A stretch of 57,498 nucleotides of DNA, filler included, from Dugesia japonica (Eukaryota), in assembly GCA_001938525.1 (NCBI GenBank). It is 5 parts of 5 records of this genome, joined end to end, with 100 filler letters (N's around TTAATTAATTAA, not from the genome) between each part and the next. Parts side by side here need not be neighbours in the genome. Positions count along the whole stretch, not along the records: positions 19,337 to 34,241 come from MQRL01468391.1; 4 more parts are not named here. One strand, 5' to 3'. The notes below the pieces were generated by a model. That model ran no database searches. It was given only the letters and a program-made list of their open reading frames with translations, and was not told the origin of the DNA. Below, piece by piece: positions 10,196 through 43,890 of this stretch. Position 1 is the stretch's first letter. Every line of letters begins with the position of its first letter. The position numbers and the translations under genes are program-made.

Positions 10196-12968
10196 TCCCT
10201 CTCCATAGAAAAGGAAACTCGTTTTAGCCATTCAACTCGTCTTGACTTTGGTTTATCTGGAAAATTCAGAGGCACTTGATGGGGACTTAAAAAAATCTGT
10301 CTCCACTTTTATGAATATTATGAGGTTCCTTTTTTACAAGAACATTTTCACCAATTGCGAATTGTCTGTGACCTCTTGTATCTGATTCGTACTTTCTCAT
10401 TTCCTTCGCAACTCGTTTCAGTTCTACTTTTGTTTACTTGATCACTTGTTCATGAATAGCGATCTCATTTCTCAACAACTCATGTAACTGCACTTTTCGC
10501 CCATATAGAACTTCAAATGGAGATCTCTTAATAGCGCTTTGATATGTTGCATTAATTGAAAATACAATCTTGGGAATGTATTTATCCTAAGTAAATCTAT
10601 TCTTACCACTATTCATTGAAATGACTAACATATCTCTAGCTGTTATAGTTGCTCGCTCTGTTAGACCGTTGTCTTGATGTTGGTTAGGTGATGTAAATTC
10701 CTGTGTAATTCCAAATCTTACTCACAACTTGTTCATTTTTCTACCTTTAAAATCTCTACCTCGATCAGATAAGATTGATTTTGGTTTTCCAAATCGGTAA
10801 ATTAATTGGTTCTTTATTGCATCTGATATTCCTGTTTCATCTTGTTTACTAAGAAGTATCAATCGAACTAGTTGGCTAAATCTATCGATAATAACAAGCA
10901 AGTACTTTGATTAGACTTATACTCAGAAAAGTAGGACCCATCTATTACAATTTATTATAGTGGTCCAAATTCCTCTCTTGGTAACAATAGGTTTTTTGTT
11001 CGACCAGTGTAGACCTTCGTTTAGCACATATTTCACATTTTTGAATTTTGTGTTATATTTTTCTACTCATATCAATCCGGAAATATATTTATTGAATATA
11101 TTCCACTAACTTCTTGCTTCCCAAATGANATAGTTCTTTGTGCAAGTATTAAACTAATTTTGCTGAGTGATTTTCTGGTATAACGATTAGTTTCTTCTCT
11201 TGTTCATCTTTAATAACAATATTCTCAAATAATTTGAATTTATCTAAACTTTTAAAATATTTACTTTTCTTCACATCAGTAGTAACATTATTATCCAAGC
11301 CTTGTAACCATGGTGATATTGATCCTAGTATTCCACATTGGTTTTGCAATATTTTCGTCATAAAATACATTTTCGTTTAAACTGTTTATAAATCGAATTT
11401 TCAATTTAGTTCCTTTACTATCATGGTGTTTAGTTAAGCATTGAGTACACAACGTTTCATTTATTCTGGAAAATCCGTCAGCATTATTGTGATCCTTTCC
11501 TTTTCGATATTCTAAATCAAAATTAAATACAGAAAGATTAGCAAATCAAGTCTGAAACTGTGGACTAATTGGTTTNNNNNNNNNNNNNNNNNNNNNNNNN
11601 NNNNNNNNNNNNNNNNNNNNNNNNNNNNNNNNNNNAATCAAATAATGCTTAAAATGCATAACAAATTCATGAATAGCCAAAAGTTCTTTTCTGGTTACAC
11701 AATAACCTTTCTCATGATCATTTAAAACTCTCAACGCAAAACCTATAACTTTTTCATTACCTTTGTTATCGTTTTGGCTTAGAACAGCTCCAATAGCTCC
11801 AAAACTGGCACCAGTGTCCAGAATCATTTCTTTTGATGNNNNNNNNNNNNNNNNNNNNNNNNNNNNNNNNNNNNNNNNNNNNNNNNNNTAGTTAAGCATT
11901 GAGTACACAGCGTTTCATTTATTCTGGAAAGTCCGTCAGCATTACTGTGATTCGTTCCTTTTCTATATTCTAAATCAAAATTAAATCCAGAAAGATTAGC
12001 AAACCAAGTCTAAAACTGCGGACTAATTAGTTTATTTGTTTTTTTAATATAAGTCAAAGCTTTATGGTCAGTTCTTATTTTAAACTTTTCCCCAATCAAA
12101 TAATGCTTAAAATGCATAACAAATTCATGAATAGCCAAAATTTCTTTTCTGGTTGCACAATAACCTTTCCCATGAGAATTTAAAACTTTCGACGCAAAAC
12201 CTATGACTTTTTCGTCACCTTTGTTATCGTTTTGGCTTAGAACAGTTCCAATAGCTACAAAACTTACATCAGTGTCCAGAATCATTTCTTATGATGGATC
12301 AGGAAATGCTGTAGTTAATTCATCCTTTAGCTTTTGGAAATTACTTTCAGCCTCTTTGAACCACTCGCTCAATTTTTCATTTCCTGATATCATTGCATAC
12401 AGTGCTGCAGTAATAGTTGCATAATCTTTGATAAATCGACAATAATAATTAGTTAGTCCCAAAAACGATCTTAATTGCGTAACACAACCTGGGATTGGTG
12501 CTTTTTAAAATTTTTTTAATTTTATCATCATTTGTTTGAATTCCTTTTTGACTAATTGTGTGACCCAAAAAATTCAATTTATCAGTTCCAAATACACTTT
12601 TTCCTGGATTAACGTTTAATTTTGATGCTTTAATTGACTCAAATGCTTTTTCTAATCTTTGATTATGTTCATCGACAGTTCTTCCATAAACTAAAATGTC
12701 ATCTAAATAAACAATTACAACTTTATACAGCATTCCTTTAAAAATGAAATTCATTAAACTCTGAAAAGTTGTCGGTGCTGTACATAAACCGAACGGCAAC
12801 CGGTTAAAGCAGAACTGTCCAATTTTAGTACTAAAAGCTGTTTTCATCTGTGAATCTTCGTCTAACACAACTTGATAATAAGCTTGTCCTAAGTCTATAG
12901 ATGAAAAAATAGTTGACCCATTTAAAGTATCCAAAAGCGTGTTTATGTCCGGTATGGGAAATGAAAAT
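10196..12968 (-). mobile_element. Ty3/Gypsy LTR retrotransposon pol remnant (RT-RNase H-integrase), 5'-truncated, frameshifted
   Basis: RT motifs FSSIDLGQAYYQ, LPFGLCTAPTTFQ and VYLDDILV. RNase H motifs ILDTDVSF.AIGTVLSQ, TRKEILAI and IRTDHKAL. Integrase-like GKPKSILSDRGRDFK and FTSPNQHQDNGLTERA at about 10650-10800. Confidence 0.95.
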
Positions 12969-12974
12969 TTTTAT

Positions 12975-19336: not shown

Positions 19337-21153
19337 CTTATAGGCTAATTTTTATTTAAAGAAGGAAAGCCACTTAAAGAAAGAGGTTGCCTTAATTAAA
19401 AGTGTCTGAAAATAAACTGATATACGTCAGTATTTATAGTAGAATTTACACTAGGCCTCATGCATTGACCTAGTGATTATTATTCAAAACATAATAAAAT
19501 TTTCATTCCAAATAATAAAATTTTCCAGAAAATTTTCAGATCAAATAATAAAATTTTTCATAAACTTTTAAATAAAAATGTACAATAAAATTTCAAATTA
19601 ATTTTCAAACAACAAACATCGACACAATAAAGTCAAAATGATTAATAAACTCACAATAATAAAATGTAATGTCAGCATATTGTATTGATTGATCTTGATT
19701 TGAGGACTTGGATCGAATAATTGATTTGGGAATTTCGATTGAGTAGATTTCTTATTTATTGTGTGTTGTGTGTATTGCATGCTTGTATGTTCAAACTATT
19801 TAAACCTCAACACTAAAATTAAAATATAAATGATTTATTAATTAACCATGATTGCTACACAATTAAAATCAAAACCGAAAAATTATTCCATATTAAATGT
19901 TGACATGAAACGATAAAATTTTAAATCCAAAATTTATCGTTTAATATTTCCAATATTACAGTTATTCCATATCATATGATGTCACTTAGTATAACTCAAC
20001 ATCATTCAGTGTTCCTTACTCCAATTGATAATCAAAAATACAACTAGATTTCGTTGAGGTATTTTAGGGATTATTACTAATGCAAGTCAATATTTTAGTA
20101 TAATCCGAATTCTGTTGACGTGTTTCTTGTGGAAACAGATCAACGATGATATATGATGGGATTAGATTTTATTTTATATTGTATAGTTATATAATTTTTC
20201 TTATGAACGTTAAGATACTTATAATAAATAATTAATATTTGATATAAATAGGCTGTATAGTCGTTCTTATGTATTAATCAAAGAATTACTTTTTTACAAA
20301 TATGTTGTTAACAATAAACAGCGTTAATTAAAAGTTAAGATCTTTAGTTCTGAGTAGTTTAGGGCCAAAGGCCAAAAAATATGTTACGAACTTTTTAAAA
20401 AAGGGTAAAGTGAATTTGGTGTGAGTATTTATACTTCTTCATCTACGTATGTCTACATGCAATGTTCTTTTAAAAATATGTACCTTTAAATAAAACTACC
20501 AAGCACATGGCATTAATTTTGTGAAATTATTAATAATAAAATAAAAATTTACAAAGATTGTTGAAAATTATATAAAAATAACAGTAAAATTATAAGGTCA
20601 ACCATTAAGAGTACTTGTAAAGATTTTGAATTGAAATTTTCCAAATATAAAATTCTCAATAAAATAAAATATAATTTCTAAAATAAAATCGATTATAAAA
20701 TTTCCAAATTACAGTTCTAACATTGTTTTTAAAATGAATTGTTTTTTACAAATTAATCAGCAATCAATAGATTGTTAATGGAATGTGAAGGTCAACACAT
20801 AATAACTTGCAGATTTGTTGAAGGGTTTTTTTTAATATACTGATCGGATTGGATTTTTAATAGGGATGGGTTGGCTGTTGCTATTGATTTTTGGTTGGAT
20901 TGGTTGAGATTGTTATGTCTGTGTTGATATTATGTTGTGTATGTATTTGTATATATTTGGATTTAATTTGATTTTAATTTTAATTTTCCCCAATAATAGT
21001 TTAATTTTATAGTTCAATTTCTTGAAATTTAAAATCTTTGAATTTTACTTTTGCATTTCACATATTTCCGTGTTCCTAATCGTTATTTCAATTTTTATGA
21101 ATTTCTATGTAATTTGATTTGATTCAGATTCTATACCAATTCTTTAAATCAAA

Positions 21154-22587
21154 TGTCACATAGTGAATATTATACTTTCATCTACGAGATTATGCTGCGA
21201 TGATACCTTTATTGTCTTGCACACGAAGACGATAACAGTAAGAAAAGAATTATGACATATTTGGATGTATTTTGTAATCACCCGAATTTAGTCTCTCTTG
21301 AACTATTGACAGATCTATTGCTGTATTCATCTAGTTTTCTAACGGTAATATCATATTGTATAATTTTCATCGACTCGTAGAGGTTAGGTAAAATTTGATC
21401 TTCATTAAAAAAAATCATGAAGAGGCTATAATCAAGGAAAAATCACATTAACACCAATATTCATTTACTCTTCGTTCGTAAACTTTAGGCACCGAATGGG
21501 ATTACTCAGATCCACTAACTCTTGCAGTACCGATAATCTCCTCATAATTTCTTTGGTCAATGTGTAATAATTTCGATCTAGGTTTCAGTCTTTCGACCTG
21601 CAATAATCTCAGCATAATTTCTTTCATCAGTTTAGAATAATTTCAGCCTAAGTTTCTGTCTTTCAAATTGAGATAATAATTGCAATAATTTCACTAAAAT
21701 CTCTTTCAATCTTCGATAATCTCAACTTAACTTCTCTCATCAATTTGTAATAATTTCAGTAAAATCTCCATCGCATCATCATCGAAGCACGATTGTATTA
21801 ATGGTAGGTCACTCGGGATTAAGGTAATTATTAATTATTTTTAATCTGTTGGATCTCATGGTCTCCTAAAGTCACAAAAATTATGTTAAAATTTTCTGTA
21901 AGTTTGTTTTTTAAAACTTTTTGATTCTAAAGTAGTGTTTCTTATTTTCGCCTGTCATCATTTTTATTCCTCGTGTTGAACAGAGACTTATCATCCCTAA
22001 CTGATCAGCCAATCTCCATCGGTTATTCTTGAATGTCGCCATCTCATTGGCCAGCCATAACTCGTAGTATTTTGATACCTCTTCAATCGCACGACATACA
22101 ACTCCTGCAATAAACAACTCATCCTTAATTTTATATGTTCGTGTGCGTCGTTGATTGACGGCTGATTTGGATTTCCAAATCTACGTGATTTTATGATCAG
22201 GGCTTTGTTTAGTTTCATTTGCATTTACATTTCTCTAATCATTTGAGATTTTATGTGATGGAAAAAAGTGCATGGACCAGTTGACAAAATTTTAATTAAT
22301 ATAATATGCATAATTGAAATACTATAATAATAACAAAATATACTAATTATTTTTATTATAATAATGAAATCAGGGTCACAGAGACCCTTATATACTTATT
22401 ATAATAGTGTTATAAGACTTTTGGTCATAGAATAATTGATCGTTACGGTCATTGGAGGTCTGGTCACTGTAATAATAATAATAATAATAGTAATCATTTC
22501 CCGGCCCAGCACTCGCTCTCATTTGTTGCACTATTCCTGCAGAGTCCTAACATCGCTTTATCCAGGCTCCTGCGTTCTAGTCAAACA
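21154..22587. repeat. ~1.43-kb solo LTR-like element (TG...CA) with internal tandem repeats
   Basis: Starts TGTCACATAG, as after the PPT at 4866, and ends GTTCTAGTCAAACA. Homologous to 232-1490 and 1893-2300 in reverse. No clean TSD seen. Confidence 0.5.
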
Positions 22588-23219
22588 AATCTAAAAACAT
22601 TCTTTAAAATGAGCGAACATAAAATTTTATTAATATTCTCTCTTTTCTGATTTCTACGAGGGTAAATAACATTTATATTTGATATAATTAATATCAATAA
22701 ATATCTAATAATTATAAGTTATGAATAGTAATATTTTACTTAATCATTTTTAATAATATTTTTGTATATTTTTCTAAATACTAAATGAATTTTTGAATAC
22801 TCTTATAATAGTATTACAATTTCAATTATTGCGATAATAATTATTAGACATAACCATTGATCGTTTGTCAGAATTCATTTAAATTCATATTGATCGATGC
22901 TTTTATTTTAAATGAACCCTTATAATAAGTCTAATCCTTTTTATTTTACTTCTATAATAATAAGTATGATATTTTCACTCTTGTTCAATAATTAACAAAT
23001 ATTTATAATAATGATTATTTTATTATTCTTTAATTACTGTTGAGTTCGTACAATTTCAATTCCATAAATACAAAACAAAGATGGCAATAGGCATAATAGT
23101 TATCATTTTCTAAATACTTTTACACTGATAATTATATCTCATACACCTATAAGATGATATAAATATAAATGATTATAAATAAATAAATATATAAATATAT
23201 TTACATTACTCCTTTTCCT

Positions 23220-24265
23220 AAGTGACCCTTACTTCGTATTCTCACCATCCAGCATAACTAATTACATGTTGGCATCTAAAAATTCCGTCCCGAGATTTTA
23301 CTCTTTAAAATCGCTTCCTATTCCATTTCCATCGTTTATACTCAATGTTTTTTGTCATTCCAATGATGTTAGTATTTAAGAGCCTTTAACACAAGATATC
23401 TGATAGGTCCAAGAAAATAGTAATACGAGATAAAATAAGAAAAAAATTATATAAAAATAATCATACACAATTTACATCATATAATTCGCACGCTTTGCCA
23501 AATTTATAACATAATTCATTGTTCCTAACACTACTCTTATATTAATAAAATTATCAATTATCATGAGATTATTCTAAATTTTAATGATAGCATTTACTTG
23601 ATCTTGACTTACATTGCAAATAATTTAATCCCACAACCGGTTTCAGTGGCATATAAACATTGCTCCCACCACATTCTGACCAGGACCAGATCATCGACGG
23701 ATAATTTACAGGTCCAGGTTCATAAATCTGATGGAATTGTTGATTAAAATATTCGATAGGTCCATCCAACTTCGAAATTTTGTGGATCTAAATCACTATA
23801 CACATTATCAAATACTTAGAAATAACGTTTGACAATATAACACCTTTCGTAAGTCATTATTTTCGAACAGAAATAATTGTTGAATGATTTTTCTTTTTTT
23901 GCCAATAAAAATCATTTGACTCAAAGTCATTTATCCCGATGTAAATGAGAAGGCATACGAATTTATTCATTTCATTTATCGTTATTTTTGCAAAATTCTC
24001 ATAAGCTTCATTTCCAAGCGTTTTTTTGGCATAGCTGTTTGACCATGTAAGAAACTATATTAGGGGTTGATAACTGTAATGGTGGCCTGCGTTGGAAGCT
24101 AGAAACAGGTAACTAGTTAGAACCAATATTTCCTTCTTCGGACACCATTAGCTGAACTTTCCTGATTTTCATGACCACTTTCTGGGGTTATTTGTTTCGT
24201 TTCCATTTCCTCCTATTAAGGTTTGGTCGATATCATTGTCACTGTTTGGTACAAATCTATCCATT
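23220..24265 (-). mobile_element. piggyBac transposase pseudogene
   Basis: TINEMNKFVCLLIYIGI..FYW, MTYERC.IVKRYF, IEYFNQQFHQIYEPG..LSVDD, VYMPLKP..GIKLF. Many stops and frameshifts. Confidence 0.85.
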
Positions 24266-25099
24266 TTAATTTTTATAATGAAAACAAACGTTAACATTTA
24301 TTTTTATAATGCCAATTGATTTTTTAAATTTTAACAATTTTATGGTTATAATACATTTTCTATGTTCATTTTTGCCACATATTTGTGGCATAATCAGTAA
24401 AACATAATTTTCTAAAACAATCAACTACCTACACTCTTTAACTTTATTCTAGAAAAACAATACATACAGAAACAAAAATATTTAGAATTGGAATTTGTAA
24501 GCACTTGGAAACTGTTGAGAGTTTTATTTTGTATTTAAAAGTAGTAAAGTTGTATTTAGCTACATGTATGGAAGTTTCTTGCAAATTTAGTAACCGGTAC
24601 GACTGTATATAAAATCTCCATAAATATTTATTTAATTACAAATTGTTTTGATATTTTGTTGAAAGTTAAAAATGATGAATATTCATAATATTCAAACATA
24701 TTAACTCATTATTTATTTAAATGATAGGATGTTTTTAAAAAATAACCCATGCCTCAGAGATATTCAAATATTTATATTTACATAAAATGCATTTTCATAT
24801 ATATTTAAATAATATCTAATTTAATATTTTAATATTTCAAATATTTCTTAATACGTTTTAGAAAAATATATTTTAATATATACTCAATAATTTCAAAATT
24901 CACATTTGAAGAAATGTTGAAATAAAATATTTATTAAATAATTTTAATTATAATTTTCAATAATAACAGTTACAAAATTATATTTTATAATTAAACTTTT
25001 ACAATGTAAAATCTACATGGTGTCTAGACACCTAAGACTACAGCGTTTTTGGATTCGGAATTATTTAAGAAAAGAAAGGAAGGAAGGTTCATTTCAAGC

Positions 25100-26040
25100 G
25101 AATATAAAAAAAATAAACTTTACAAATATATACAAAATAAAATATATCACATTATAGTTTTTTTGATTTAAAGTTTCCAATTAGTGATCTCTGAATTAAT
25201 CTAATGAATGAATTGATTGTAGGTTTTTGATTGAATTTTTCATCGCATCGAAGTCCATGCAGATTGATTCGCCTGCATCGCTTGGATGAAGGCTTGGTTC
25301 ATTTGTAGACATGTCGGTTCTTTCACTCAGCAAGTGTTCATTCATTTTTAGAAGCTCTGAGTAGCTAGCATAATGGTCAACATAGTTCAAGGTGTTATGA
25401 ACCATCCATGTTCTCGAACACCAGTTAATGTTGCTAGCGATGCATTGAAATTTGATGTTGGTGATTGAGTTTTGTTTGATGTTGATAGCTTTCAGAATTG
25501 AATCGTTTTCTGATCTCCAACTACCAAGGCAACCGACAATAAAGGTTTTGAGATGTACTTTTCATGTTGGAAGAAAACCTTGTAGTTCTTCACGGAGACT
25601 TATATTTTCGAGATTGTCTTGATTAGCTTTTTCAAAGTTGGCAGAGATATCATGTAGTGTTTTGATATCTATTAAATATAATTCTTTTTGGCCTTAATTT
25701 AACTTGCAAAAAGACTCGAAGCTTTGACTCAATTGATGATGTACGAATAATTAGCAATGCAGTGACAGAGAATGTGACGTATTTGTCTATAGAGAGGTAA
25801 GAGTTTAGTAGGATAGTCGACATTTGAGTAGAATATACTGGGTGCTAAATGCCAGCATTATAGTTAAAGTCTTCATCGGTGGTTGAGACACAATGTAAGG
25901 TATCATCATAGTTGTCAATTGATTTTTGTTCGCATTATAATTTGACTTTAGGCAGCAGAGAAGATTAGACAGCATCTGCGTGAGATTGTTCAATTCAACA
26001 TTTTTCTTTACTCTCTGGTTATTATTGTTGGTCAGGATTG
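25100..26040 (-). mobile_element. 5'-truncated non-LTR retrotransposon, NeSL/R5/Utopia-like (zinc knuckle + restriction-like endonuclease)
   Basis: HILCHCIANYSYIIN (CCHC region), LYLIDIKTLHD..NFEKANQDNLE, KVHLKTFIVGCLGSWRSENDSILKAI. The last is the REL C-terminus pattern of the NeSL clade. Confidence 0.8.
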
Positions 26041-26129
26041 TTAGAAAAAGAATTAGAATTTGGAATAAATTTATTCAAGTAGTACTTATGGATATATTAT
26101 TTATAATCGCAATTAAAATTATCATTAAT

Positions 26130-27282
26130 TCCTGAATTTTCGATATCTAATTTTTCCGTTTGTTTAACTGTNGTTTTTAATGGTAGCTAAGCATCTATAA
26201 ACTAAATTTAATTTATGCATTAACCTCTACCTAAAACCCCTCATGATACACGGAGTACTAAAATGGGGTCGTTATTTTTTTAGATTATTTTCTATGAATA
26301 GTTTGAAGAATTCAACATTATAAATGTCCAATAATATTTCTTCACCAATTGCTACTTGCTTATCGACAAGATCTTCGAATCACAATTCTGAATTCATTTG
26401 ACACGTAGTAAAAAATCCATGCTTGAGACCATTGGGTAATATTATTATAAATAAAGATTTTCCGCTGTTTGAAACACCTTCGCAAATTATTGAAGAGGAT
26501 TTAGTACCCCGTTGAGATATAACCAAACCGACTGCAGCAATCCTAAAATCCACCATATTGGATTCATCACCCAAGCTCGCAGGATCATTTTTAGTAAATT
26601 CATTGAAGCCAAATTTGAAAAAAAGTAATCTCGATTGTATTTAATCATCATCAACGAACGAAAAAATTCCTTGCTATAATTATCATGAAAAACACATTGT
26701 CGAACAGGAATGTCACGATTTATAAGACTCTTTAACAAAGTGCAAACTTATTGACAAATTTTTAGCCTGGAATTTTTCTATACCGACATGGCTTCTACAA
26801 AATCCAACTAAATTTGTTAGCCGGCTAAATGACACATACAAATATTATACTGGCCAAAAGGAAGTATCAAGTCAGGGCTACCGTCTTATATAGTCAGGAA
26901 GTAAACGTCTATCAAAGGAATCCATAAAACTATCAGGATGTTTATATACTCCACTATATATTTGCTGTTTTGTATATTCCCATTGGTCGTATAGTTCCCT
27001 ATGTTTCACTAGTTTCTCTGTGGGAAGCGTAATTAAATGTAGAGATTTATGAGGTAGATTATCTTTTACAATAGTATTTTTTGGATTAATTATATTTTCA
27101 ACTTTAAAATCCAAAATACTTTTGTCAAAACCAGTATTAAAGGCATCAAAACGGGTAGACAGACTTTCCTGAGTAGATGAAGATTGGTTTGAGTGTAATT
27201 TGCCGATAATAAGTTGATTTATAGGCTTAATAGAATGATTAATAGCCCCCTTAATTATCCCCCAAGGCTCATATAACCCCAC
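26130..27282 (-). pseudogene. Endogenous parvovirus-like NS/Rep gene (SF3 helicase), frameshifted
   Basis: Walker A CEGVSNSGKS (about 26455-26484), Walker B FEDLVDKQVAIGEE, B' VEFFKLFIEN, C-like STPCIM. It is preceded by LKMILRAWVMNPIWW..VISQRGTKSSSII, matching parvoviral NS1 context. Confidence 0.85.
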
Positions 27283-27289
27283 GCATGAT

Positions 27290-27470
27290 TAATCGTTATA
27301 TTTTTATATGTGAATGTTTTACTATAAGGTTTATCTATATATTAACATATTTTAATTTGATTGGTCTAATTTATCGTGTATGTGTGTAATGTTTAATTAT
27401 ACAAATATTCTATAATATAACATTTACTTATAAAAATAGGAATGAGTCATAAATAAAAAACATTTATTAA
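27290..27470 (-). promoter_or_regulatory. Viral intergenic region: VP polyA signal followed by putative NS promoter
   Basis: Minus strand: AATAAA (27468-27463), TGACTCA (27449-27443), CCAAT (27364-27360), TATAAAA (27308-27302), about 20 nt before the NS ORF. Confidence 0.45.
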
Positions 27471-27534
27471 ATAACATTAAGGCATAGCAAAATTAGTATT
27501 CAAATGATGAGATTTGGCAAATTTAAGTCTATTA

Positions 27535-28768
27535 TCAGTAATTTTTTGGAAATATTTCTTCTTGCTTTTCATCTTCAGGCTTTGTATGATTATAAAAGAA
27601 ACATGGTATTGCATATGGTATCATTGGTATAACATATTTACCAAAATTTATTGTTTCACCTGGTGCAGACAACATTCTTCTAACACTCATTGATCGTACT
27701 TGACCAAATACTCTAAAACTATATTCACATTCCCAATTAAACGAACATATTAAATGCATTTTACTACCAGCTACACCAACAATTGCATTTAATTTATAAA
27801 ATAATAAAGACATTGGATTATGTTCAGATACATCAAGCAAATTACCCACTTGTTGATATTCCATAAGATTTTTTATTCCCGTATTATTATTTAAATATTT
27901 CAATATATTTGTTTTCTCTGTTTTACCATCTGCTTTCTTTTTACCGTCGAATTCATTAGTTAATCCAATATTAACTCTTCTATATTTATTATTATTCCAT
28001 CCATGCTTTTTTATTCTATGTGGCATAGTAATTAATTGCTTACTCTCTGTAACACTCTTTCTACCCAATTGTCCACCAATCATTGTTCTTAATGGCAAAT
28101 ACTTTTTACAATTGAAATAATCAAATCTATTATATAACATTGGTTTACTTAGTTTAGCCTTTCCTTTAGAATATATATCCTTTTGTTCATCCCATTCTAT
28201 TACATGTCTGGGTAAATTCTTATTACATTTATAACTGTAAATAAATTCATCTCCAGCATTACAATTTCTAATTTCAACTTCTGCACAAGTTTCAAATATA
28301 CAAAAAGGTCCATATGTTGGTAAAGTCACTGATTTCGGAGTAAATAAAGCTCCATTTTTATCTAATCCGTTATGCAGCATTCTTTCATCCTCCCAAATAT
28401 CTGTAAACTATTCACCATTCTTTAATAATGTAGCACAAGGTCCAAATAAATGTGCATTATCTACATATACTAAAAATTCAGCTTGCGGTTGTAGTCCAGC
28501 AGTAGTAGTTGGATTAGTCGCACCCACTACTTGTATATTAAATATACGATATTTCATTTCTAACGGTTCAAACCATTGATAGGCTAGCATTTCTGCAATT
28601 TGTTGTGGAGATTGATTAGCACAATGTGGAAAATAGTATATTAGTGGCTTGGAAATTGTTGTCTCCTGTAGTTGGCCTTGAAATTCATAGTTTGTCTGCT
28701 ATTGAAACCATAAGATGGATGGTATTCATTGTTTCTACTTTAGCCATTTTGCTTAAAGTTTTGGACAT
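27535..28768 (-). pseudogene. Endogenous parvovirus-like capsid (VP) gene; one premature stop and a 5' frameshift
   Basis: KPLIYYFPHCANQSPQQIAEMLAYQWFEPLEMKYRIFNIQVVG..EFLVYVDNAH compares with parvoviral TPWxYF..FSP..FRP..KLFNIQV..VFTD. Also LPTYG..IFET..AGDEFIYSY and C-terminal LLFYKL..CSFNWECEY. ORFs 28408-28590 and 27535-28380 are in frame across one TAG. Confidence 0.85.
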
Positions 28769-30269
28769 GAAGAGTGGTCTAATTTTCGCTAATTCGATAT
28801 ATTTCTAAAACTGATTTTTGGCGATTTTTGTCTCTAATTTTTGGCTAATTTAATAGATAGATCTGTTGGGTATTTCTATTCAACAAAAATATATGGTTCG
28901 TATTTTATAACTGTGTAGTTTTGTTTTCTTCATTTAAATCAACTTAAATAAGACTTGATTCAATATTTTATTTAAAATACAAACAATTCTTCTTTGAAAT
29001 TCTTGCTTTTTGAACGTTTCTTCCAACACTTGCCTTTCCCAATTTATGCTTTTAAATAACAATAAACTTAAACAAAATTATTATATTTATTAAAACATAT
29101 TTTGCAAATAAAAAACTTTCGAATTTAAAATAATTTAAAAATAAAACGATAAAATCCAATTATTAAACTTTTCACTAAATATTTACATTTAAAAACTTTT
29201 GTAAATAAATATTTTTATTAAAGCTTTATAATTAAATTTCAAATATAAATTTAAAAATTTAAACTAATAAACATTGATTTTAATAAAATATTTACGAATT
29301 TTTAAAATACTTAATAATAACTACTGACTAACACACTTGAGAATTTTGCGGAAGTTGATTTTTTTATTTTATTTGTTGTATGTAAATACTACACTATATA
29401 TCAAATATAATTATTCAAAATGTATAAATAGGGCGATATTGATTAATTGACCTTATTTAAATAAATGAAGATAAACCTTTTTGAAATTCTTATTTTTTAT
29501 GTATAATAAAATAACAACTATACCTAACACATTAAGCGCAATATTTTGATTTAGCCGAGTACAACTTTCCTTAGAGGTCTCTGTAAATGAGAAAAATTGG
29601 AAAAACTGATGTTAGCCTTTCATATTTATACTAAATTTACACTGGGCACCGACTACTTTACATAATTTTAAAAAAATTTTCCATAAATAAATACATATTC
29701 CAATTTACTGTTTAAAGATTTCAAATGTACTGTATATGAAAATTTTGCCTGATTGAACTTTATAATAAAGTTCATATCTTTGTTCAAATAATAATAAATA
29801 AAATAAAATCACTAATTTTGTTCAAACAAGATAAGAATTATTGGTTATTTATCATAATAGAATAGAGTCGAAATTTTTGTTGTTCATTGCTTGGAATTAA
29901 TATTGTTGAGGAGTAATTGGCTCGATCTTTGGTTGTTGATTGATAATTTGAAGATCACCTTTTGTATTTAATTTATGCATATGATCCCAACAGATCGTTT
30001 GCGTTTTCATCTTAAATTGAGATTAGATTATCCATAATTATAACATAAATAGAGATTCAATTTTCTTTAGATAGACCGGGAAAGTGAGAGCGAAATAAGT
30101 GATGATTTTATGAGAAATAAATTGATTGTTGAAGAAATAATTGTTGCACGACATTTAGAATCCACTTGAGAAACTGATTATAAATTAATTACTAGTGAGA
30201 AATGTCAATTCCATAAATCGAAATATTCCAGTTTATATTGTAGAAATTTCTTGAAATTCACAAAAATTG

Positions 30270-31420
30270 AAATTTTCAATGTTGAGATATAAATGTAAAT
30301 TGTAGCAAATAAACTACTTTTAATAATCAGTAATGATGATAATTTTTTTAGATTTTTAAAAATCGGCTAAGAATCTAAATATTATTGACCCATTCCTAAA
30401 AATTTTGAATTCGTTGCATAAAAACATTAGATTCCCTACAGAAATGGAATGTACATCTAAACTTTCTTTCCTTGACTTATTAATAGAAATTAATTCCAAA
30501 CATTATGAAACAGATTTATTACAAACCAACCGACACATCTGTTAGTTTTTGTGAATCTCGTTACAAGTATAACATGATTAAAAGTCTGTTGTATAGATCG
30601 TGGACTCTTTCATCTTCATATTTAAGTCTTGTACTAATATTCAAAGTTTAACTTTTTTTCTAAATAAAAAATGTTATTGTAAATCAATTGTAGAGAAATT
30701 AAATCATGAAACAATTGATAAGATCGTTTAAATTAATTCTAATAAATTAAAATTAATAAAATTAAAGATGAAATTAACTATTCGTATTCAGAAGGATTTA
30801 AACAATTTCAGAGTGGGTTATTAAAATATAGAAATGACTCTTCTGATTTTAAAATTGTTTCGCAATATTAAAGCCATTAATATTTTTAGTAATAAGTTAA
30901 AAACACTAATTAAATTATGTTCTGATCTTATTTATAAATATGAATGTAATGGGTGTAATGCCACATACATAGGAGAGATTTCTCGTCATCTCTGTACAAG
31001 AATTCAAGAACATCGTCGAGTATGTAGTGGAAGTCATTGCTGAACATAATATTAATTTTAAATCAGTTATCAATATAAATAAATATAAAATTTTGTGCAG
31101 AAACTTTAAAGATTATTGAGAGAGATATGTGTAAAGTATTGGTGATAATATCAATTGATCCGAAATTTAATGTTGAAACTGGTCTTTCTAAATGTTTATT
31201 GAATGTTTTTAATTAATTTGACTTATTGGAGGGATTGCATAAACATAATCAGAATTTTTTGTATATCAGCATTTTTATAAAAATTAAAAAAAAGAATAAA
31301 TATTATTTTAATAAAGAATTTTCAAAAAAGAATTAAATTATTGTATCCGAAGATGACAGATAATCTGTCGAAACATTTAATAAAAAATATATTTAAAAGG
31401 CGTTTCAAAGTTTATATTAA
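30270..31420 (+). mobile_element. Penelope-like element 3' half (RT thumb, GIY-YIG, pLTR)
   Basis: LNSLHKNIRFPTEME..LSFLDLLI and LIYKYECNGCNATYIGEISRHLCTRIQEH. Confidence 0.9.
31336..31387 (+). ncRNA. Minimal type I hammerhead ribozyme motif in Penelope pLTR (core mutated)
   Basis: CCGAAGA (consensus CTGANGA) T GACAGA-TAA-TCTGTC GAAA CATTTA, then AATAAA. Confidence 0.7.
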
Positions 31421-31779
31421 AAAATTGCCAATTTTCTTTGATTATTTAAATAATTACAAATAATTTCAAAATTGACTATTTAAAAAATGTCAAAATGAAA
31501 TATATACTAAATAATTTTAATTATAATTTTTATATACTACAATAAATTAAATATACTCCATAAAATTTAAAAATTTCGTTTGGCATGAGCTATTTCTTTC
31601 AGTGGATATTAAAATTATAATTTTAATTTATTTTAAACACCGAAGTATTTTTTAAAATTTTTAAATTTGTATTTTTTAATATAAATTTTATAAAGTATAT
31701 AAATTATGCAAATTATAAATCTTATTGATATTAATATAATTTCTTTAAAAACAACATTTATTGTATTTAACAACAAATT

Positions 31780-33275
31780 TTGTCTTTAGCAGTGTCATTG
31801 TAAGTCTATAAATTTAGTTTTGAAAATTGTGTTAAACTGATAATCAATTTGTTCCATTTGCAATAGCACGGGAACATTATCTTGATTGATCATAAATGAG
31901 CTGTTATACAGCCTTAGATAAATTTAATCTTTTCGGAAACCTGCAAATCTTTTGTGGAATGCATTAAATATGCACTGTATTTTCACTGAATTTTTTGTTT
32001 TCAATGAATCAAGAGTAATAGCATGATTAGACATTCGGGTTTTCTGAACTAAACATACCTTTTGTAGTTGTGAAGATCACAATTGAAGTTTTTTAACAGG
32101 TCTTTGTTTTGCAATTTGATGTTAAGCGTATTTAAATGTGCAGTGATGTCCACCAAAAATGCAAAATTTGCCAGCCATCCTGGATCTGATAGCTCTGACA
32201 CTGCATAACCTTTATGTATTATGAACATTTTGATTTTTTTCTCGTAGATCATAAAAACGTTTCAGCCCATTTATTTCACTCAACCATAGTACTTCACAAT
32301 CGCATATTACGTTAGTATATTCAGCTTCAAGTTTAGCTAAAAAACTTTGAAACTGACCAATTTTTTTTGATATAATTTATTGCTTTTACAACAACAGTTA
32401 TCACCTTTTCCAAATTTGCTAATTTACTTTAGAAGGCCTATTGATGAATAATACACTGAAATGTTATTTCAATAATTGTTAATTTAGTTTCTCGTTGTCT
32501 AGCTTTTACAAGAGATACATTTCCAGACTTATTTTCAACTACTGATGGAACTCCATCAGTTGCTAGACTTGTTAATTTTTCTAGTGGGAATTCCAATTTT
32601 TCAACATATCCAAGAATTTTCGAAATATATCTTGCCCTGTTGTGCCGTGCAAAGTAACCTGTGACAATCCGTCAGTTACATGTAAATTAGTATCCAACCC
32701 TCGGCAAAAATTGTGCCAAATCTGTATTATCAGTGCTTTCATCCGTTGCTACAGAAAAAAATGTAAATCTTTTTGCTTTTTCGAACAATTGATCCCTAAT
32801 GTTATTTGGTATTTCACAAATTCTGCGCAATCGTATTACGTAACAAACTAATATTGGTAAAACATTTTTTACCTAGACAAATAATTTTTGCAGCAGTTAT
32901 TATACAGTACTTCACAAAATCTCCCGTAGTAAAAGATTTTATTTCTTTTGCAATCTTTTAAGAAACCAGATAATTTAAATACGTTTTGATGAGATTTATA
33001 GTTGTAGTTCTTAAGGTTTTTCTTTTCTGTATTGACCTATAATCTTGTTATAACTATTATCGTGGTTCGTATCACAATGCCTCTTTTAAGGCACTCATCT
33101 GTTTTCTGCAACTCAGACATTGTACATAATAAAAAATACATTTCAGTTCAAATGTCTCTAAATGCACTTGATTCATTGTCCATTTTCGCTTTATCTTTGT
33201 ATTTACTGACATTTTTGAAATTGGATTCAAAATTATTAATTTATTTTCAACACATTGTAACACGAACGCTCTAAA
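31780..33275 (-). mobile_element. hAT transposase pseudogene (Buster/SPIN/GTF2IRD2-like)
   Basis: KIAKEIKSFTTGDFVK, FSVATDESTDNTDLAQ, LTSLATDGVPS, FQCIIHQ, WLANFAFLVDITAHLNTLNIKLQ. Confidence 0.92.
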
Positions 33276-33570
33276 ATAGAAAAATTCAAAATAATAAGGC
33301 GTACTTAAATGAATTTAAATTTTACTATTAAATTGCAAAATAGACATCTTACAATTTATACTCATGCATAAATAAAGGTAAGAGAAGGAGACTAATCACC
33401 ACCAGCCACCTCATAGTTAAATTACCGTATTTTCAAATTTTCCAAATATGCACATATATATGCATTTATATGCACTTATACAAACTTTATGTACCCCATA
33501 TATACACTTATATATGACCCCTGACATACAGAATATTACATAATAGACAAGTCAAAAAACATAACATATC

Positions 33571-34241
33571 TCAAAATTTATTTGCATTAAAGTACAGTAT
33601 CATATATTTCTGTAGGTTAATATCATTGAAGTGTCTTTCTTCGGTCAACACTTTCTGCAGCAAGAAAAAACTTTCTACCAATATCGATGTTCCTGGACAA
33701 TTTAAAATGTTATTCTTTAAATCTAGCGAAATGTTGTTTAGATCTCCATCTTTAATATTGAATATGTCTGTTTTAATCATACCAGACATTATATAATTTT
33801 GTAAATCTAATTTATCTCCTTCGAATTTCAGATTATATATTAGGTTTAGTACGTCCGTTATACTTTTATTCTCCGTCAAGGAATCATTTATGATGTTTAA
33901 CAACGGTGAGTACGTATTAGAACTTCCACCAATTGTTCTTGTAAACCGTCTCTGTGAAGAGCAGTTTTCATATTACTTACAATTATTCCATCATCAACAA
34001 TATTTCTTACTTCAGATAAGTTATTGGAACAATAAATTGCGGCATGAGTGCAGCGTCACTAATTAAAACCAAGAAATTGTTCTTCCAAAGATCATATAGC
34101 CGGATAGTATCATCTATGACGTTCAACATTATTTTGGCATTTGTAGCCGTATATATCTCTGTAGAATTTACTAGAAAAGTATTTTTCTGGTTTTCCACAT
34201 TTCCGAATATGATATGAATAAATCGCCTATCTTGTAATTGT
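33571..34241 (-). mobile_element. hAT transposase C-terminal fragment (CGGBP1-like type), internally deleted
   Basis: FLVLISDAA and the dimerisation-like motif CPGTSILVESFF..KVLTEERHFNDINLQKYMILYFN. Confidence 0.7.
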
Positions 34242-34341: not shown

Positions 34342-34715
34342 TACTGGCATCGTATACATTGTGGTACCTGTCTGGAGTTTTTTACAAATTGGTTCATGTT
34401 TCTTGCTACTTCATTTTTGAATCCATTGAGACAATTAGGACACCATGTTGATTGAATATGAACACCTAGTCTTTCATTATCCCTGCTCATTAGGCCATTT
34501 TGATTCATTACTGCGGTGTAATGAAATCTGTTGTTATTTTCCAGTAATAACAAATACATTTTCTCTCCATCAATTACTTTTCATCGGTGTATTATATCCA
34601 AATTTAGATGTTTCATGATTAATTCATCTTCTTCATCTTCCACTGATTCTTGATTCCATGATAGGATATTGATGGATAGTCTAGGATTATTCTTCTCAAA
34701 CTTTGGTAAATATAA
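34342..34715 (-). pseudogene. Maverick/Polinton protein-primed DNA polymerase B N-terminal fragment
   Basis: LPKFEKNNPRLSINILSW...YLLLLENNNRFHYTAV..LMS...WCPNCLNGF matches the FExxN-SIN / LLL-HY / CxxCL pattern of Polinton PolB N-termini. Confidence 0.75.
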
Positions 34716-35039
34716 TTCTTTTACTTAAACAAATCAAGTGTTTCTTATGTGCCCTATAAAACCTACGTAGTCCCCTAAACCTAATACCTTACAATTAGGA
34801 CACAAAAAATAAGTTTTTCCATAAAACCGTTGGCCATAATATCCTTCCAAGATACTATGGCAGTCACCATTGTGACTCGCACTTGCGCAATGGTTGTATT
34901 ATTTGCAATGTTCTAAAATACTTTAATAATAATATAATAATTTTAATAATAACATAAAGATTTTAATAACATTTTTTTTCTTTATAAAATATATTACCTT
35001 TGATATTTTTCCAAAAACAAAACATATAAGATTGGTAAT

Positions 35040-36716: not shown

Positions 36717-37915
36717 CACTAATACTGTTCCGTTGTCTTTTATCTGAATTTCTTTTTCAGATACTCCTTAAATGAGAACATATGCCGATGTTGTTAAAGC
36801 TTTGGTAAACTTGATTTCCAATCTCAAATTTCCTTATTGAAGTAATTGACTCTGATTTATATCAAAATCTGGAGCAAGAACAGATGTAAAGAAAGGATAA
36901 TTATCATTAAAATCTTGAAGTGTTATTCATATTCTTATCCAAATATCCCATATTTTGTACTATAGATTGCATATTTGTTTGGCAAAATTATCGCTTGTAA
37001 AATCCTGAGCATATATTTCTCGATAATCAGTGTTTTCGTCAAGGAAACAGAAACAGCATCTAGAAAATTTGAACTTGAGCTTTTATAAATACCATTATAT
37101 TGTTCACCACTTTGAAATGTAACTAGTATAAAGCTATGTTATCGACGATCACCATAGATTTGTTTCTTAAAAAATAATCAACTATCTTTACTAATTGTCA
37201 ATGCAACGAATTCCTTGTTTCTTTTTGGATAAACATCATTTTGCGTTTTTAGGCCCATTTGATGAGCAATTAGTACTGAGGGTTCAACTAGTACACGTCT
37301 AACCATTAATTTTGCATCTAGTAATACACATTTAGGTGCATTGACTGCAGATTCCAAACAAATATTAGCATCTGCTCGTTTCAATCGAATATGGACATTG
37401 ACACCAGGAATAAAGTATTTCGGTTGATCCATGAAATCCAATTGTAATGAGCCACATAGTAATAATGGTTTTGATTTTGCAATAGACTTTTCTATCTACT
37501 TCTGACCCATATCCCGTTGCTGTAAGACATATATTTTTACTATCACCATTATAATTTATTATAGTTTCAATAATTGCTTTGTGAAGATAAGATCCATTTC
37601 CACCTTCAATTTTGAAATTATTAAACAAAAGAATTACATGCTTAAAAAGTGTATGCAGCATATAATTACTAAAAACTGCATAATGAGTGTCAGTCAAATC
37701 TTTACCAGCCTTATCAACCACTTTCACGTTAATATACAATAAAATATCATTCAAATCCAAATATTTTGTTTGAGATCCATTTATAGAAACTCTACGTCAC
37801 TTTGTGATTCAGAAATTGAATTCATAGGAAAGACATCTTCAAAAGTACCACTTTCAATTACAGTTTGTGAGGATAGTCTATCAAAAATACATAATTCAGT
37901 TTTACCTCAAATCAT
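36717..37915 (-). pseudogene. Maverick/adintovirus double-jelly-roll major capsid protein, frameshifted
   Basis: KTELCIFDRLSSQTVIESGTFEDVFPMNSI..VEF.INGSQTKYLDLNDILLYINVKV, NYMLHTLFKHV, DFMDQPKYFIPGVNVHIRLKR, and C-terminal GNLRLEIKFTKALTT. These are typical of the Polinton MCP family. Confidence 0.88.
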
Positions 37916-40974: not shown

Positions 40975-43890
40975 CTGTGATTTTCCCCGAATGTTGCATA
41001 GGACTCTTAACTAACGTTACTTCCTTTTACTAGCTTGATTTTTGTGTCTACTAGTACTTGCAAATGAATACAATGGCTTTGTGATCTGTTCTTGTTATGA
41101 ATTTTTTCCGATATAAATAATGCTTAATTGTGGTTGCAGAAGTAGCAGATTGCGAGTAATGCCTTCCGTGTGATACAGTACCCCTTCTCATGTGATTTCA
41201 TTGCATGTGAGCCATAAGCAATCACTCTTTCTCTTCCGTCGCCATCATTTTGTGATAGGACCTCTCCTATTGCGTCGAAGCTGGCATCAGTATCTAAAAT
41301 AAATGTCTTCTTTATATTAGGGAAGATTTCATTTCATGTTTCATTTCTGCAAAAGCTTTCTCATATCCATCTGAACATATTAGCTTTGTGCTGTTGCTTC
41401 CACATAATTCTTCTACATCTCTTGATTTCTTTGAATAATTCTTGATGAATCTTCTGTAATAATTGCATATTTCGAAGAAGCTTCTCAGGTTCTTTACAAA
41501 TTTCGGTTTCTCAAAATTTTTGATAGCTTCCATTTTCATTAGATCTGTTCGAATTCCTTCTTTATGTATTATGTGACCAAGAAATTTCACTTCTTTGAAT
41601 AATAGGTGACATTTTTCTGGATTCGCTGGCAACTCTGCCGTTTAGATCCGCTCTAATACCTGACTCTGAGTTATATAATATTATTTTAGTCCTTCTGAGA
41701 ATATCATTATATCATCCATATACACCGTTGCTCTATCTAGACCGTCAAATACTTTTGTCATTAGTTCTTGTAATGTTCCTGGGGCTGCTGCCATGCCAAA
41801 TGGCATTCTTGTGAAGCAATATTGATCATTTTGTTTGTCGAAAAGGCTATTTTCTCTTGTGTCTCTTTTTCTAACGGTACCTGGTAATACGCGTTTCCCA
41901 AGTCTATGGTTGGCTCCATACAAATTGTCTAACATTTCTTCTACGTTTGGCATCGGGAAGGCCTGTCGTTCCCTAACTGTATTTAGTTTCCTGAAGTCCA
42001 AGCAAAGTCTCACACCCTTTCTTTCTTTCTTCCAGACGCATATCAGTGGTGTCTTTCACTGCAAATTACATTTTCTTATAATATTAGCGTCCGCTAATGT
42101 TTTTATGGCCGTATCTATTTTTTCTTCTAGATTCATGGGTTGTCTCCAAGGCTTCGTATTTATTGGATTACCCTTTGTCACTATCTTGTGTTTCGCCAAT
42201 GTTGTGCATACGTTATCTGCTATGAATACTCATATATGTTTTACTATTCCCTTTCCAGTTTTTCGTCTCGTTTTGTCATCAAAATTTTCAAAGCTCTCTA
42301 TTCTCTTTCAGCATCCTCAATTTTAAGGCCAAACCGTGCAAACCGTTCTCATAATCCTTTGTTTCTTACGTCAAACGGTATCCAAACTGGCGTTGCATGT
42401 CTATTCCTCCAACAAGATTCGGACTCATTTCTTAACATACGGTGAATTGTACGATTTTCTTTTTGTTTCCGATCTCCACTTCTACATATATTTTGCCCGC
42501 AATGTTCATTCTTCTATTATTTGCTCATTTTAACAAGTCATCAGTTCCTATCAGCTCCACATTTGCCAGATTTTGAAAAATATTGAGGCTCATCGCGTTG
42601 ATCTTTGCACCTGTATCCAAAAGGCAGTCCATATATCTTCCTTGAATTCTAACTTCCACACTGAGCCTACCTTGCATTCCATCATAAATTATTTTTACTT
42701 GTTCATTCCCTTCTAATACCATTATTTTGTTATCATCATTTCTCGTTTCTTTCATTATATTGATATCTGTATTATACATATCTTTAAAATCTTTCTTTAA
42801 AAACTCATAAACCTTTCTTCTCTACTCTTTACTTTTTAATTTCATCTTTTATACTATTAATTATACTACTTTTATTATACATATGTATATCGCGGTCTGG
42901 AATTTTTTTCAGTTCATTGCTCCAGTCATCTTGACTTTGAATAGACCTTGTCTGTTTGTGGCTTGTTCTATATATCTGTTTGTCTCTTCGTCGTAATAAT
43001 AAATATTATCTCCTCTCTTTATGTACTCCTCATCTTCTTCTATCATTGCGTTTACATATCTACTGCCGTCTCTTTTCCTGAATCCATTTTTCACTGATGT
43101 CTTCCCACTTGGTTATGGGAATCTATTATTATCGTCATATCTTCTGTTTGATTCATCTCTTCAGTTGTATTGTGCTGCTTTGTTTCTTTGTTCGTTATTC
43201 TTCTGTCTTCTATCATTAGTCCACACACATCCTTTCTCCGAAATAGTATAACATTGTTCTGTATGATGTCCATTTTTTCCACATCTTGAACATCTAATTT
43301 TGTCACAATTCCTTCTTATATGATTCTCTTATCCGCATGCATAACACATTCTTTTCTTTTCCGGACAATTTCTGCTGATATGACCAAAATTTAATTTCTT
43401 TTTTAGCTTCAATTTGAGAAATGTTTTTGGTTTCTTTGTGTAAAAAATGAGAAATGTTATTTTGCCGTGCCTCTTTTTACTGCATTGGTGNAACTCTCCA
43501 CCGTATTTATATTATCTGTTTCTTTCAGGTCCTCATTTAGTTCAACATATGATTTTATTTTTGCAGCTATCTCTTCCGAGTTAGCTAGTTTGCCTATTTA
43601 AATATTTATTTGCATCCTTTTATCGCGGCAATTATTGAATATTAATTCTTTTGTCACCTCTTCTTTGTCTAGTTTGCGTGCAAAGATTTTATCGAACATT
43701 GTTAAAATCTTTTTCTTGTACACATAAACGTATTCATCCGTTCTCTTGTATTTTAAAGCTTCCTCCAAGTTTTGTATTAGAGCAGTCCTTTTGTGGAACG
43801 CTTTTCTCAGTCAGTCCTCAAAATCTAATAATTCATCTTGGCATTCGTATGGTTCTCTTAATTCTTGGAACTGTGCGTGGAAAAAGAGTG
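40975..43890 (-). mobile_element. Ty3/Gypsy gag-pol remnant (gag zinc knuckles, protease, RT, RNase H; integrase missing)
   Basis: GHISRNC..CYACG.ENHIRRNC, LLDTGAKIN, RLCLDFRKLN, MPFGMAAAPGTLQ, VYMDDIMI, FILDTDASFDAIG. Confidence 0.95.

What the first reader, a model, noticed from the sequence alone, without database searches (positions are those of the whole stretch)
26130..27282. Short NS with SF3 helicase but no visible HUH endonuclease (bidnavirus-like)
Seen: from the TATA-proximal start to the helicase end is only about 350-380 codons, and the intact N-terminal 134 aa show no HUH or YxxxK rolling-circle motifs that I can find. Established: parvoviral NS1 needs HUH for rolling-hairpin replication, while bidnaviruses lost it and use a Polinton-derived protein-primed PolB. 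Inference: this virus may have replicated using a separate Rep segment or a Maverick polymerase. Maverick PolB and termini are abundant in this window, although on other contigs.
Basis: partly seen in the sequence, partly recalled or inferred. Interest (0 to 1): 0.7.

Follow-up and report, generated by a model that had tools for sequence, protein, structure and literature searches.

The report
Fossil two-replicase parvo-like virus fragment
This is a broken, integrated piece of a small DNA virus of a kind already known from flatworms, in which the helicase and the nicking enzyme are separate genes, and a scrap of the nicking-enzyme gene survives on the opposite strand.

Summary
The SF3 helicase is real, but the '350-380 codon NS' is not one gene. 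It is a ~200-codon stand-alone helicase (minus, ~26744-26176), an unrelated 134-codon ORF (minus, 27285-26878) and, between them on the PLUS strand, a 55-codon remnant of a CRESS-type HUH Rep (motif I-like and decayed motif II, 26726-26893). A capsid-like gene lies upstream (minus, 28698-27535). Helicase, capsid and Rep remnant each match the corresponding gene of PEVE, the planarian extrachromosomal virus-like element (E 2e-10, 4e-9, 0.011). PEVE, its integrated form PIVE and several viruses of Buck et al. carry a helicase-only NS1 plus a separate CRESS Rep. No PolB motif or terminal inverted repeat was found on this contig piece. It is a degraded, multi-copy endogenous element of a known, unclassified kind; its gene order differs from PEVE and the 134-codon ORF remains unassigned.

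The parts
27535..28698 (-). Capsid-like gene (VP), one in-frame stop at 28408-28410; its start lies further up, probably in another frame
   Evidence: tblastn to PEVE 5.7-kb segment ORF 210-1040, 22% over 187 aa, E 4e-9; C-terminus to PEVE 1.9-kb segment ORF 242-739, E 2e-4. Both PEVE ORFs match, by eye, the two halves of Parvo6041_VP. No Pfam, PDB, Atlas or fold support, so the capsid label is inferred.
27463..27468 (-). AATAAA after the capsid stop (possible polyadenylation signal)
   Evidence: consensus match only, common in AT-rich DNA
26878..27285 (-). 134-136-codon ORF of unknown function, separate from the helicase; no in-frame ATG before 26925, an ATG at 27272 lies in another frame; possibly a truncated accessory or minor virion gene
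   Evidence: no homolog; fold uninformative; weak by-eye likeness to Parvo6041_Cah, estimated by hand as not significant
26726..26893 (+). Remnant of a CRESS-type HUH Rep: motif I-like WNFSI at 26768, decayed motif II region GQKEVSSQGYRLI ending in a stop at 26891-26893; no motif III or Rep helicase follows
   Evidence: 45% over 22 aa to PEVE Rep, E 0.011; score 49, 0 of 300 shuffles reach it, best of 98 window tiles, next 38; 14 codons: identity 9/10/5 by codon position, 4 synonymous changes; FS-to-GQ spacing 24 residues against 25 in Parvo6041_CressRep (by eye)
26886..26892 (-). TATA-like hexamer about 150 nt upstream of the helicase start, overlapping the decayed end of Rep motif II on the other strand
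   Evidence: 20 TATAWAW matches in 25900-29100, so not significant alone
26176..26744 (-). Stand-alone SF3 helicase (NS1 without HUH), broken: frame change near 26620-26640, stops at 26643, 26382, 26274, 26229, and about 30 residues shorter than homologs after motif B'
   Evidence: (29% to PEVE helicase over 89 aa, E 2e-10)
26070..26075 (-). AATAAA about 100 nt after the helicase end; near the probable left edge of the element
   Evidence: paralogous depth falls to single-copy level left of 26109

Best explanation
The locus is a dead endogenous copy of a PEVE/PIVE-type parvo-like ssDNA virus. In these viruses the parvoviral NS1 is cut down to a ~230-residue SF3 helicase, and nicking and priming are done by a second, CRESS-type Rep (HUH endonuclease plus its own SF3 domain) encoded on the opposite strand. 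Shown: helicase, capsid-like gene and a Rep 5' remnant, each related to PEVE, lie together in genomic DNA, and diverged copies of helicase and capsid exist in the same organism. Inferred: the source virus replicated by Rep-initiated rolling-circle or rolling-hairpin synthesis with host polymerase, and the spare helicase served in unwinding or genome packaging (as AAV Rep40/52 does; recalled). Inferred: a deletion between the convergent 134-codon ORF and Rep removed the 3' parts of both, which explains why Rep stops after motif II and the ORF ends just inside it. The copy is now a pseudogene.
For: Only named hit of the helicase is the PEVE helicase (1 of 6 hits named). Among 49 PEVE ORF queries against 24500-29500 the three best matches are helicase, capsid-like ORF and Rep (E 2e-10, 4e-9, 0.011). 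Rep match survives shuffling (0 of 300) and shows a protein-coding codon pattern. PEVE's helicase ORF is 231 codons stop to stop, and its Rep sits on the other record (weak Viral_Rep, E 0.03). Liu et al. 2011 list PIVE_3p beside the PEVE large-segment Rep and PIVE_1p beside the small-segment helicase. In Buck et al.'s protein file, 5 of 5 CressRep-bearing parvoviruses whose NS1 I saw (of 15 listed) have an NS1 of about 184-255 aa. An independent-looking DNA contig spans 26532-28485 without a difference, so the junctions are genomic.
Against: The Rep remnant is short: no Pfam hit, no match of its motif I part to the PEVE upstream ORF by BLASTP, and a 3-row profile hit no HUH structure, only a chance potassium-channel match. 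The shuffle test used a query chosen after the match was seen. Gene order (capsid, ORF, Rep reversed, helicase) differs from PEVE, and Rep and helicase 5' ends nearly abut, leaving no intergenic space. Capsid identity has no structural support. The tree groups the window helicase with unnamed P0003 (96/97) but its link to PEVE is open (83/99), and no bidnavirus or densovirus row was available.
Confidence: 0.8

Rival explanations
1. The plus-strand Rep likeness is chance or an old scar. The element is a Rep-less segment or satellite of a PEVE-like virus (capsid, accessory ORF, stand-alone helicase) that was replicated in trans by a Rep on another molecule, with the TATA-like site at 26892 serving as helicase promoter.
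For: Remnant only 55 codons, E 0.011; no motif III or Rep helicase anywhere near; paralogous copies at 80% or more cover helicase and capsid but hardly 26913-27314; PEVE has a TATA box just upstream of its helicase.
Against: Codon-position pattern and synonymous changes, 0 of 300 shuffles, and correct motif I-II spacing against a second virus.
Confidence: 0.11
2. The 370 codons are one decayed parvoviral NS1 whose N-terminal 134 residues are a HUH domain too diverged to detect.
For: ORF and helicase core share one frame; the fold test was uninformative (pLDDT 37), so a HUH fold is not excluded by structure.
Against: 8 stops and a frame change between the two parts, helicase N-terminus matching residue 2 of a stand-alone homolog, and the intervening DNA is explained as opposite-strand Rep.
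Confidence: 0.05
3. One reading: a bidnavirus-like virus that lost HUH and replicated with a Polinton/Maverick protein-primed PolB.
For: Stand-alone SF3 helicase is a bidnavirus trait (Krupovic and Koonin 2014, passages); 5 of 6 helicase hits are unnamed and their gene context was not obtainable.
Against: No PolB motif in the window, no long inverted repeat at the element, a Rep remnant in cis, and PEVE-type relatives use a CRESS Rep.
Confidence: 0.04

Closest known systems
[quoted passage not shown]
   Same: Stand-alone SF3 helicase of ~230 aa, related capsid-like protein, CRESS-type Rep on the strand opposite to capsid and helicase.
   Different: Only 22-29% identical in capsid and helicase; PEVE is extrachromosomal with 243-nt inverted repeats; there Rep is head to head with the 626-aa ORF, here with the helicase; here Rep is cut after motif II; the 134-codon ORF has no significant PEVE match.
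PIVE, integrated virus-like element of Schmidtea mediterranea (Repbase 2008, as cited in PMC3198968)
   Same: Integrated, multi-copy, with a PEVE-like helicase (PIVE_1p) and a PEVE-like Rep (PIVE_3p).
   Different: Sequence not available, so identity to PIVE is untested; the host of the window is not established; no terminal repeats were found here.
'CressRep' parvoviruses of Buck et al. (PMC11071296; e.g. Parvo6041 from Dugesia japonica, Parvo3071, 3723, 3867)
   Same: VP plus short helicase-only NS1 plus separate CressRep whose motif II region reads GQ.E...G..H.(Q/E).
   Different: These are intact assemblies; comparison was by eye only; this locus is a broken host-genome copy.
Bidnaviridae (BmBDV)
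   Same: Parvo-like capsid and stand-alone SF3 helicase without the rolling-circle endonuclease.
   Different: Defined by a protein-primed PolB and long terminal inverted repeats; neither found here, and a CRESS Rep remnant is present instead.
Parvoviridae proper
   Same: SF3 helicase of the NS1/E1 type and a capsid-like gene.
   Different: NS1 canonically carries HUH and SF3 in one protein (PMC13426907, passage); here they are separate genes.

Membership tests
Bidnaviridae | Protein-primed PolB encoded next to the parvo-like genes | tested here: not met
   0 matches to three recalled PolB motif patterns in six frames; no PolB among 26 short ORFs of the same contig piece scanned in Pfam; a full six-frame profile scan was not obtained
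Bidnaviridae | Long terminal inverted repeats | tested here: not met
   Longest inverted match in 25700-29300 is 14-20 nt; ends may have been lost
Bidnaviridae | Stand-alone SF3 helicase without HUH | tested here: met
Bidnaviridae | No rolling-circle endonuclease in the genome | tested here: not met
   Rep remnant at 26726-26893
Parvoviridae | NS1 with HUH and SF3 in one protein | tested here: not met
   fold test of the upstream ORF inconclusive
Parvoviridae | Terminal hairpins | tested here: inconclusive
   None seen, but the copy is truncated
Parvoviridae | Single jelly-roll capsid protein | tested here: inconclusive
   Model pLDDT 29, no fold hit; sequence link to PEVE ORFs and by eye to Parvo6041_VP
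PEVE/PIVE-type two-replicase viruses (unclassified) | Helicase-only NS1 related to PEVE small-segment helicase | tested here: met
   E 2e-10
PEVE/PIVE-type two-replicase viruses (unclassified) | Separate CRESS-type Rep on the opposite strand | tested here: met
   Only as a 55-codon remnant; negative
PEVE/PIVE-type two-replicase viruses (unclassified) | PEVE-related capsid-like protein | tested here: met
PEVE/PIVE-type two-replicase viruses (unclassified) | PEVE gene order and inverted repeats | tested here: not met
   Order differs; no repeats
PIVE (Repbase) | Sequence identity to the PIVE entry | not testable with these tools
   No Repbase or eukaryotic genome collection is held

The most novel reading that the evidence does not exclude
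The locus records a distinct lineage of two-replicase parvo-like viruses with its own gene order, and shows a second route out of Parvoviridae parallel to bidnaviruses: NS1 lost its HUH domain and was rescued by a captured CRESS Rep instead of a Polinton PolB. In the boldest form, Rep had already been cut down in the free virus, its decayed motif II reused as the helicase promoter, making this a helper-dependent segment, an intermediate on the way to a Rep-less, bidnavirus-like state.
Probability: 0.15. Interest if true: 0.6.

Novelty: new member of a known kind. Interest (0 to 1): 0.3.

Why it matters
As a locus it is a minor fossil. Its use is as a pointer: it extends an unclassified virus group (PEVE 2002, PIVE 2008, CressRep parvoviruses 2024) to a divergent lineage, 22-29% identical, that left several copies in an animal genome. 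It also suggests that the CressRep which Buck et al. call 'auxiliary' is the actual initiator, because the NS1 beside it is too short to hold a HUH domain; I did not see that stated in the passages read, and two searches for it found nothing relevant. It warns that a HUH-less SF3 helicase next to a capsid does not by itself mean bidnavirus.

Tried and rejected
Pfam on the 7 local ORFs and on both read-through frames: 0 families. PDB sequence search of helicase frame: 0; of capsid frame: 4 chance hits, E>=0.58. Word-indexed homolog searches: none for either frame; with alignment A1 only 2 (PEVE helicase and an 88% relative). Viral-contig scans returned only the two PEVE records; the 16-nt scan gave 28 loci of which 2 were PEVE and 26 were not examined further. 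Metagenome scans: 0 and 11 short Walker-A matches, the one examined (L029) looking like an unrelated bacterial GTPase by eye. AlphaFold of the 135-aa ORF (pLDDT 37) and capsid (pLDDT 29) and their Foldseek searches: no hit at E<=0.001. Atlas on the intact 290-codon capsid ORF: no usable hit. PEVE Rep against PDB: no HUH hit. Likeness of the 134-codon ORF to Parvo6041_Cah (9 identities in about 30 columns by eye): hand-estimated score about 25-30, not significant, kept only as a lead. Sequencing runs: no RNA holder listed. No spliced joint adding an upstream exon was seen among the 15 joints shown of 38. Earlier scan findings: 4 look-ups, nothing. The original PEVE paper is not held. No Atlas look-up of the 134-codon ORF and no six-frame profile scan of the whole window were obtained.

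Full report
Setting. The window is five contig pieces joined by N44-TTAATTAATTAA-N44 spacers; the finding lies in the piece 19337-34241. The DNA is about 27% G+C and rich in broken transposons; no whole genome is held. The host is coded 'organism A' and was not identified; the relatives point to a planarian or another AT-rich invertebrate (inference).

Observation. On the minus strand 27285-26176 can be read as 370 codons in one frame, with 11 stops, 8 of them between residue 136 and residue 215. Its C-terminal part is an SF3 helicase: phmmer over 1.84 billion proteins gave 6 hits at E<=1e-3, all confined to query residues 222-336; 4 of the 6 pass the Pfam cut-off for PPV_E1_C, 4 of the 6 that for Parvo_NS1, and all 6 have PPV_E1_C among their two best families; a profile of these and the window row hits E1, parvovirus NS1 and AAV Rep40. 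Nothing matched the first 135 residues, and their single-sequence model is too poor to judge (pLDDT 37).

The NS is not one gene. All 7 homologs held have their Walker A lysine 64-83 residues from the start; their starts are gene calls and could be clipped, but the PEVE helicase ORF is 231 codons stop to stop in a complete record. The N-terminus of homolog P0004 aligns from its residue 2 to 26741-26619 in a different minus frame (score 39; weaker alignments of P0005, P0007, P0008 fall in the same frame, while P0003 scored 32 elsewhere). The helicase gene therefore spans about 26744-26176. The 134-codon ORF ends 130 nt upstream, has no in-frame ATG before 26925, and is preceded by TATA-like sites: a separate gene.

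The relative. [quoted passage not shown] Both PEVE records were fetched (L001, 1911 nt; L017, 5699 nt). Of 49 PEVE ORFs used as queries against 24500-29500, the three best were the helicase (29%, E 2e-10), an ORF matching 28572-28036 (22% over 187 aa, E 4e-9) and the Rep ORF matching the PLUS strand at 26825-26890 (45% over 22 aa, E 0.011); nine others scored E 0.029-0.26. The C-terminus of the 28698-27535 gene matches a second PEVE ORF (E 2e-4). In the protein file of Buck et al. (PMC11071296, supplement passages; main text passages) Parvo6041 from Dugesia japonica has a VP whose halves match these two PEVE ORFs by eye, which is the basis for calling the gene a capsid; my own structural tests of it failed.

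The missing HUH is on the other strand. The plus frame 26726-26890 reads ...AWNFSIP...KYYTGQKEVSSQGYRLI then stop. PEVE Rep reads ...CGQEEMSSSGFRHIQ (weak Viral_Rep hit, E 0.03) and Parvo6041 CressRep ...FRFSV...IGQEEVSDNGHEHIE, with FS-to-GQ spacing 25 against 24 here (by eye). With the first 60 residues of PEVE Rep as query the finding scores 49; 0 of 300 Markov shuffles reach it (max 47), and the two tiles holding it top 98 window tiles, the next scoring 38 (the query was chosen after the match was seen). Over 14 codons identity by position is 9, 10, 5, with 4 synonymous changes, the pattern of diverged coding sequence. Against: no Pfam hit, no BLASTP match of the motif I part to the PEVE upstream ORF, no HUH structure hit by a 3-row profile, and no motif III or second Walker A nearby. 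Motif II is decayed and Rep ends there.

Known kind. Liu et al. 2011 (PMC3198968; section 8 and supplement passages) describe PIVE, integrated in Schmidtea mediterranea, and list PIVE_3p with the PEVE large-segment Rep and PIVE_1p with the small-segment helicase. Buck et al. note a parvovirus group with 'an auxiliary CressRep alongside' NS1; their file lists 15 parvovirus CressRep entries among 22 (file cut when stored), and the 5 whose NS1 I saw have 184-255 residues, whereas CressRep-less entries on the same page reach 400-600. Bidnaviruses instead are defined by PolB and terminal repeats (PMC4061559, passages; PMC13426907, passages). The original PEVE paper could not be read; PMC9241645 and PMC6186406 were seen as passages only and add nothing. 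Three large supplementary archives of Buck et al., among them probably the genome maps, were not readable, so the strand of genes in Parvo6041 is inferred from listing order only.

PolB link. Three recalled PolB patterns gave 0 matches in the window; 26 short ORFs of the same contig piece gave one Pfam hit, a DDE transposase; no inverted repeat over 20 nt lies in 25700-29300. Maverick-like pieces, judged by eye only, lie beyond a spacer.

Genomic reality and copies. In DNA run X2 one contig covers 26532-28485 with no difference, so the odd junctions are not an assembly chimera, though X2 may be the source sample. Summed depth is 13-16 over 25707-26108 and 26913-27314 but 63-78 over the helicase and 22-76 over the capsid, from contigs 80-95% alike: diverged paralogs of helicase and capsid exist, but not of the 134-codon ORF at this threshold. 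High-copy repeats flank the element (24501-25103, 28923-29324). In raw poly(A) RNA run X17 (about 25% read) no read lay on 26511-27314 and 132 of 133 laid reads were under 95% alike: no sign that this copy is transcribed in that library.

Mechanism. Shown: gene content and relationships. Inferred: the virus nicked and primed with its CRESS-type Rep and host polymerase; the stand-alone SF3 acted as accessory helicase or packaging motor (analogy to AAV Rep40/52, recalled). Inferred: after or during integration a deletion fused the convergent 134-codon ORF and Rep, and point mutations and frameshifts followed. Unexplained: the gene order differs from PEVE (there Rep is tail to tail with the helicase; here head to head with almost no gap), and a TATA-like site on the minus strand coincides with the decayed end of motif II. 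A small tree puts the window helicase with unnamed P0003 (96/97), the branch joining these to PEVE and P0004 being open (83/99); it had no bidnavirus row.

Verdict. A degraded endogenous member of the PEVE/PIVE kind (confidence 0.8); bidnavirus-like reading not supported; interest 0.3.

Noticed in passing
L017:210-1040(-) and L001:242-739(+): The PEVE capsid-like gene appears split between its two records by the 243-nt inverted repeat: the two ORFs match the N- and C-terminal parts of the window gene and, by eye, of Parvo6041_VP; a GTAAG donor-like site lies at the repeat edge. The repeat may act as an intron in one genome isomer.
   Followed up: partly
L017:4053-4083: PEVE Rep looks spliced between its motif I-like and motif II regions (GT...AG stretch of about 31 nt); the window remnant has the two in one frame.
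   Followed up: partly
window 25196-25700 (-): Reading frame pieces that look by eye like the restriction-like endonuclease end of an R2/NeSL-type retrotransposon (recalled motif), 400-500 nt from the helicase end on the same strand; no Pfam or PDB support.
   Followed up: partly
window 26860-26892 (-) and L001:950-985: The TATA-like site upstream of the window helicase is followed by GGTAGCC, and the TATA box upstream of the PEVE helicase by GGTATAGCC; significance not tested.
   Followed up: no
window 37178-37796 (-) and 34342-34900 (-): Pieces that look Maverick-like by eye (capsid-like and PolB N-terminal-like), on the next contig piece; no Pfam or PDB hit for the two ORFs tested.
   Followed up: partly
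window 23860-24054 (-), 30360-31112, 32000-34240 (-): DDE transposase fragment (PF13843, E 0.002); Penelope-like and hAT-like fragments judged by eye only.
   Followed up: no
window 11546-12970 and 41312-43300 (-): LTR-retrotransposon reverse transcriptase and RNase H fragments judged by eye.
   Followed up: no
window 21529-21785: Three to four diverged copies of a ~70-nt repeat.
   Followed up: no
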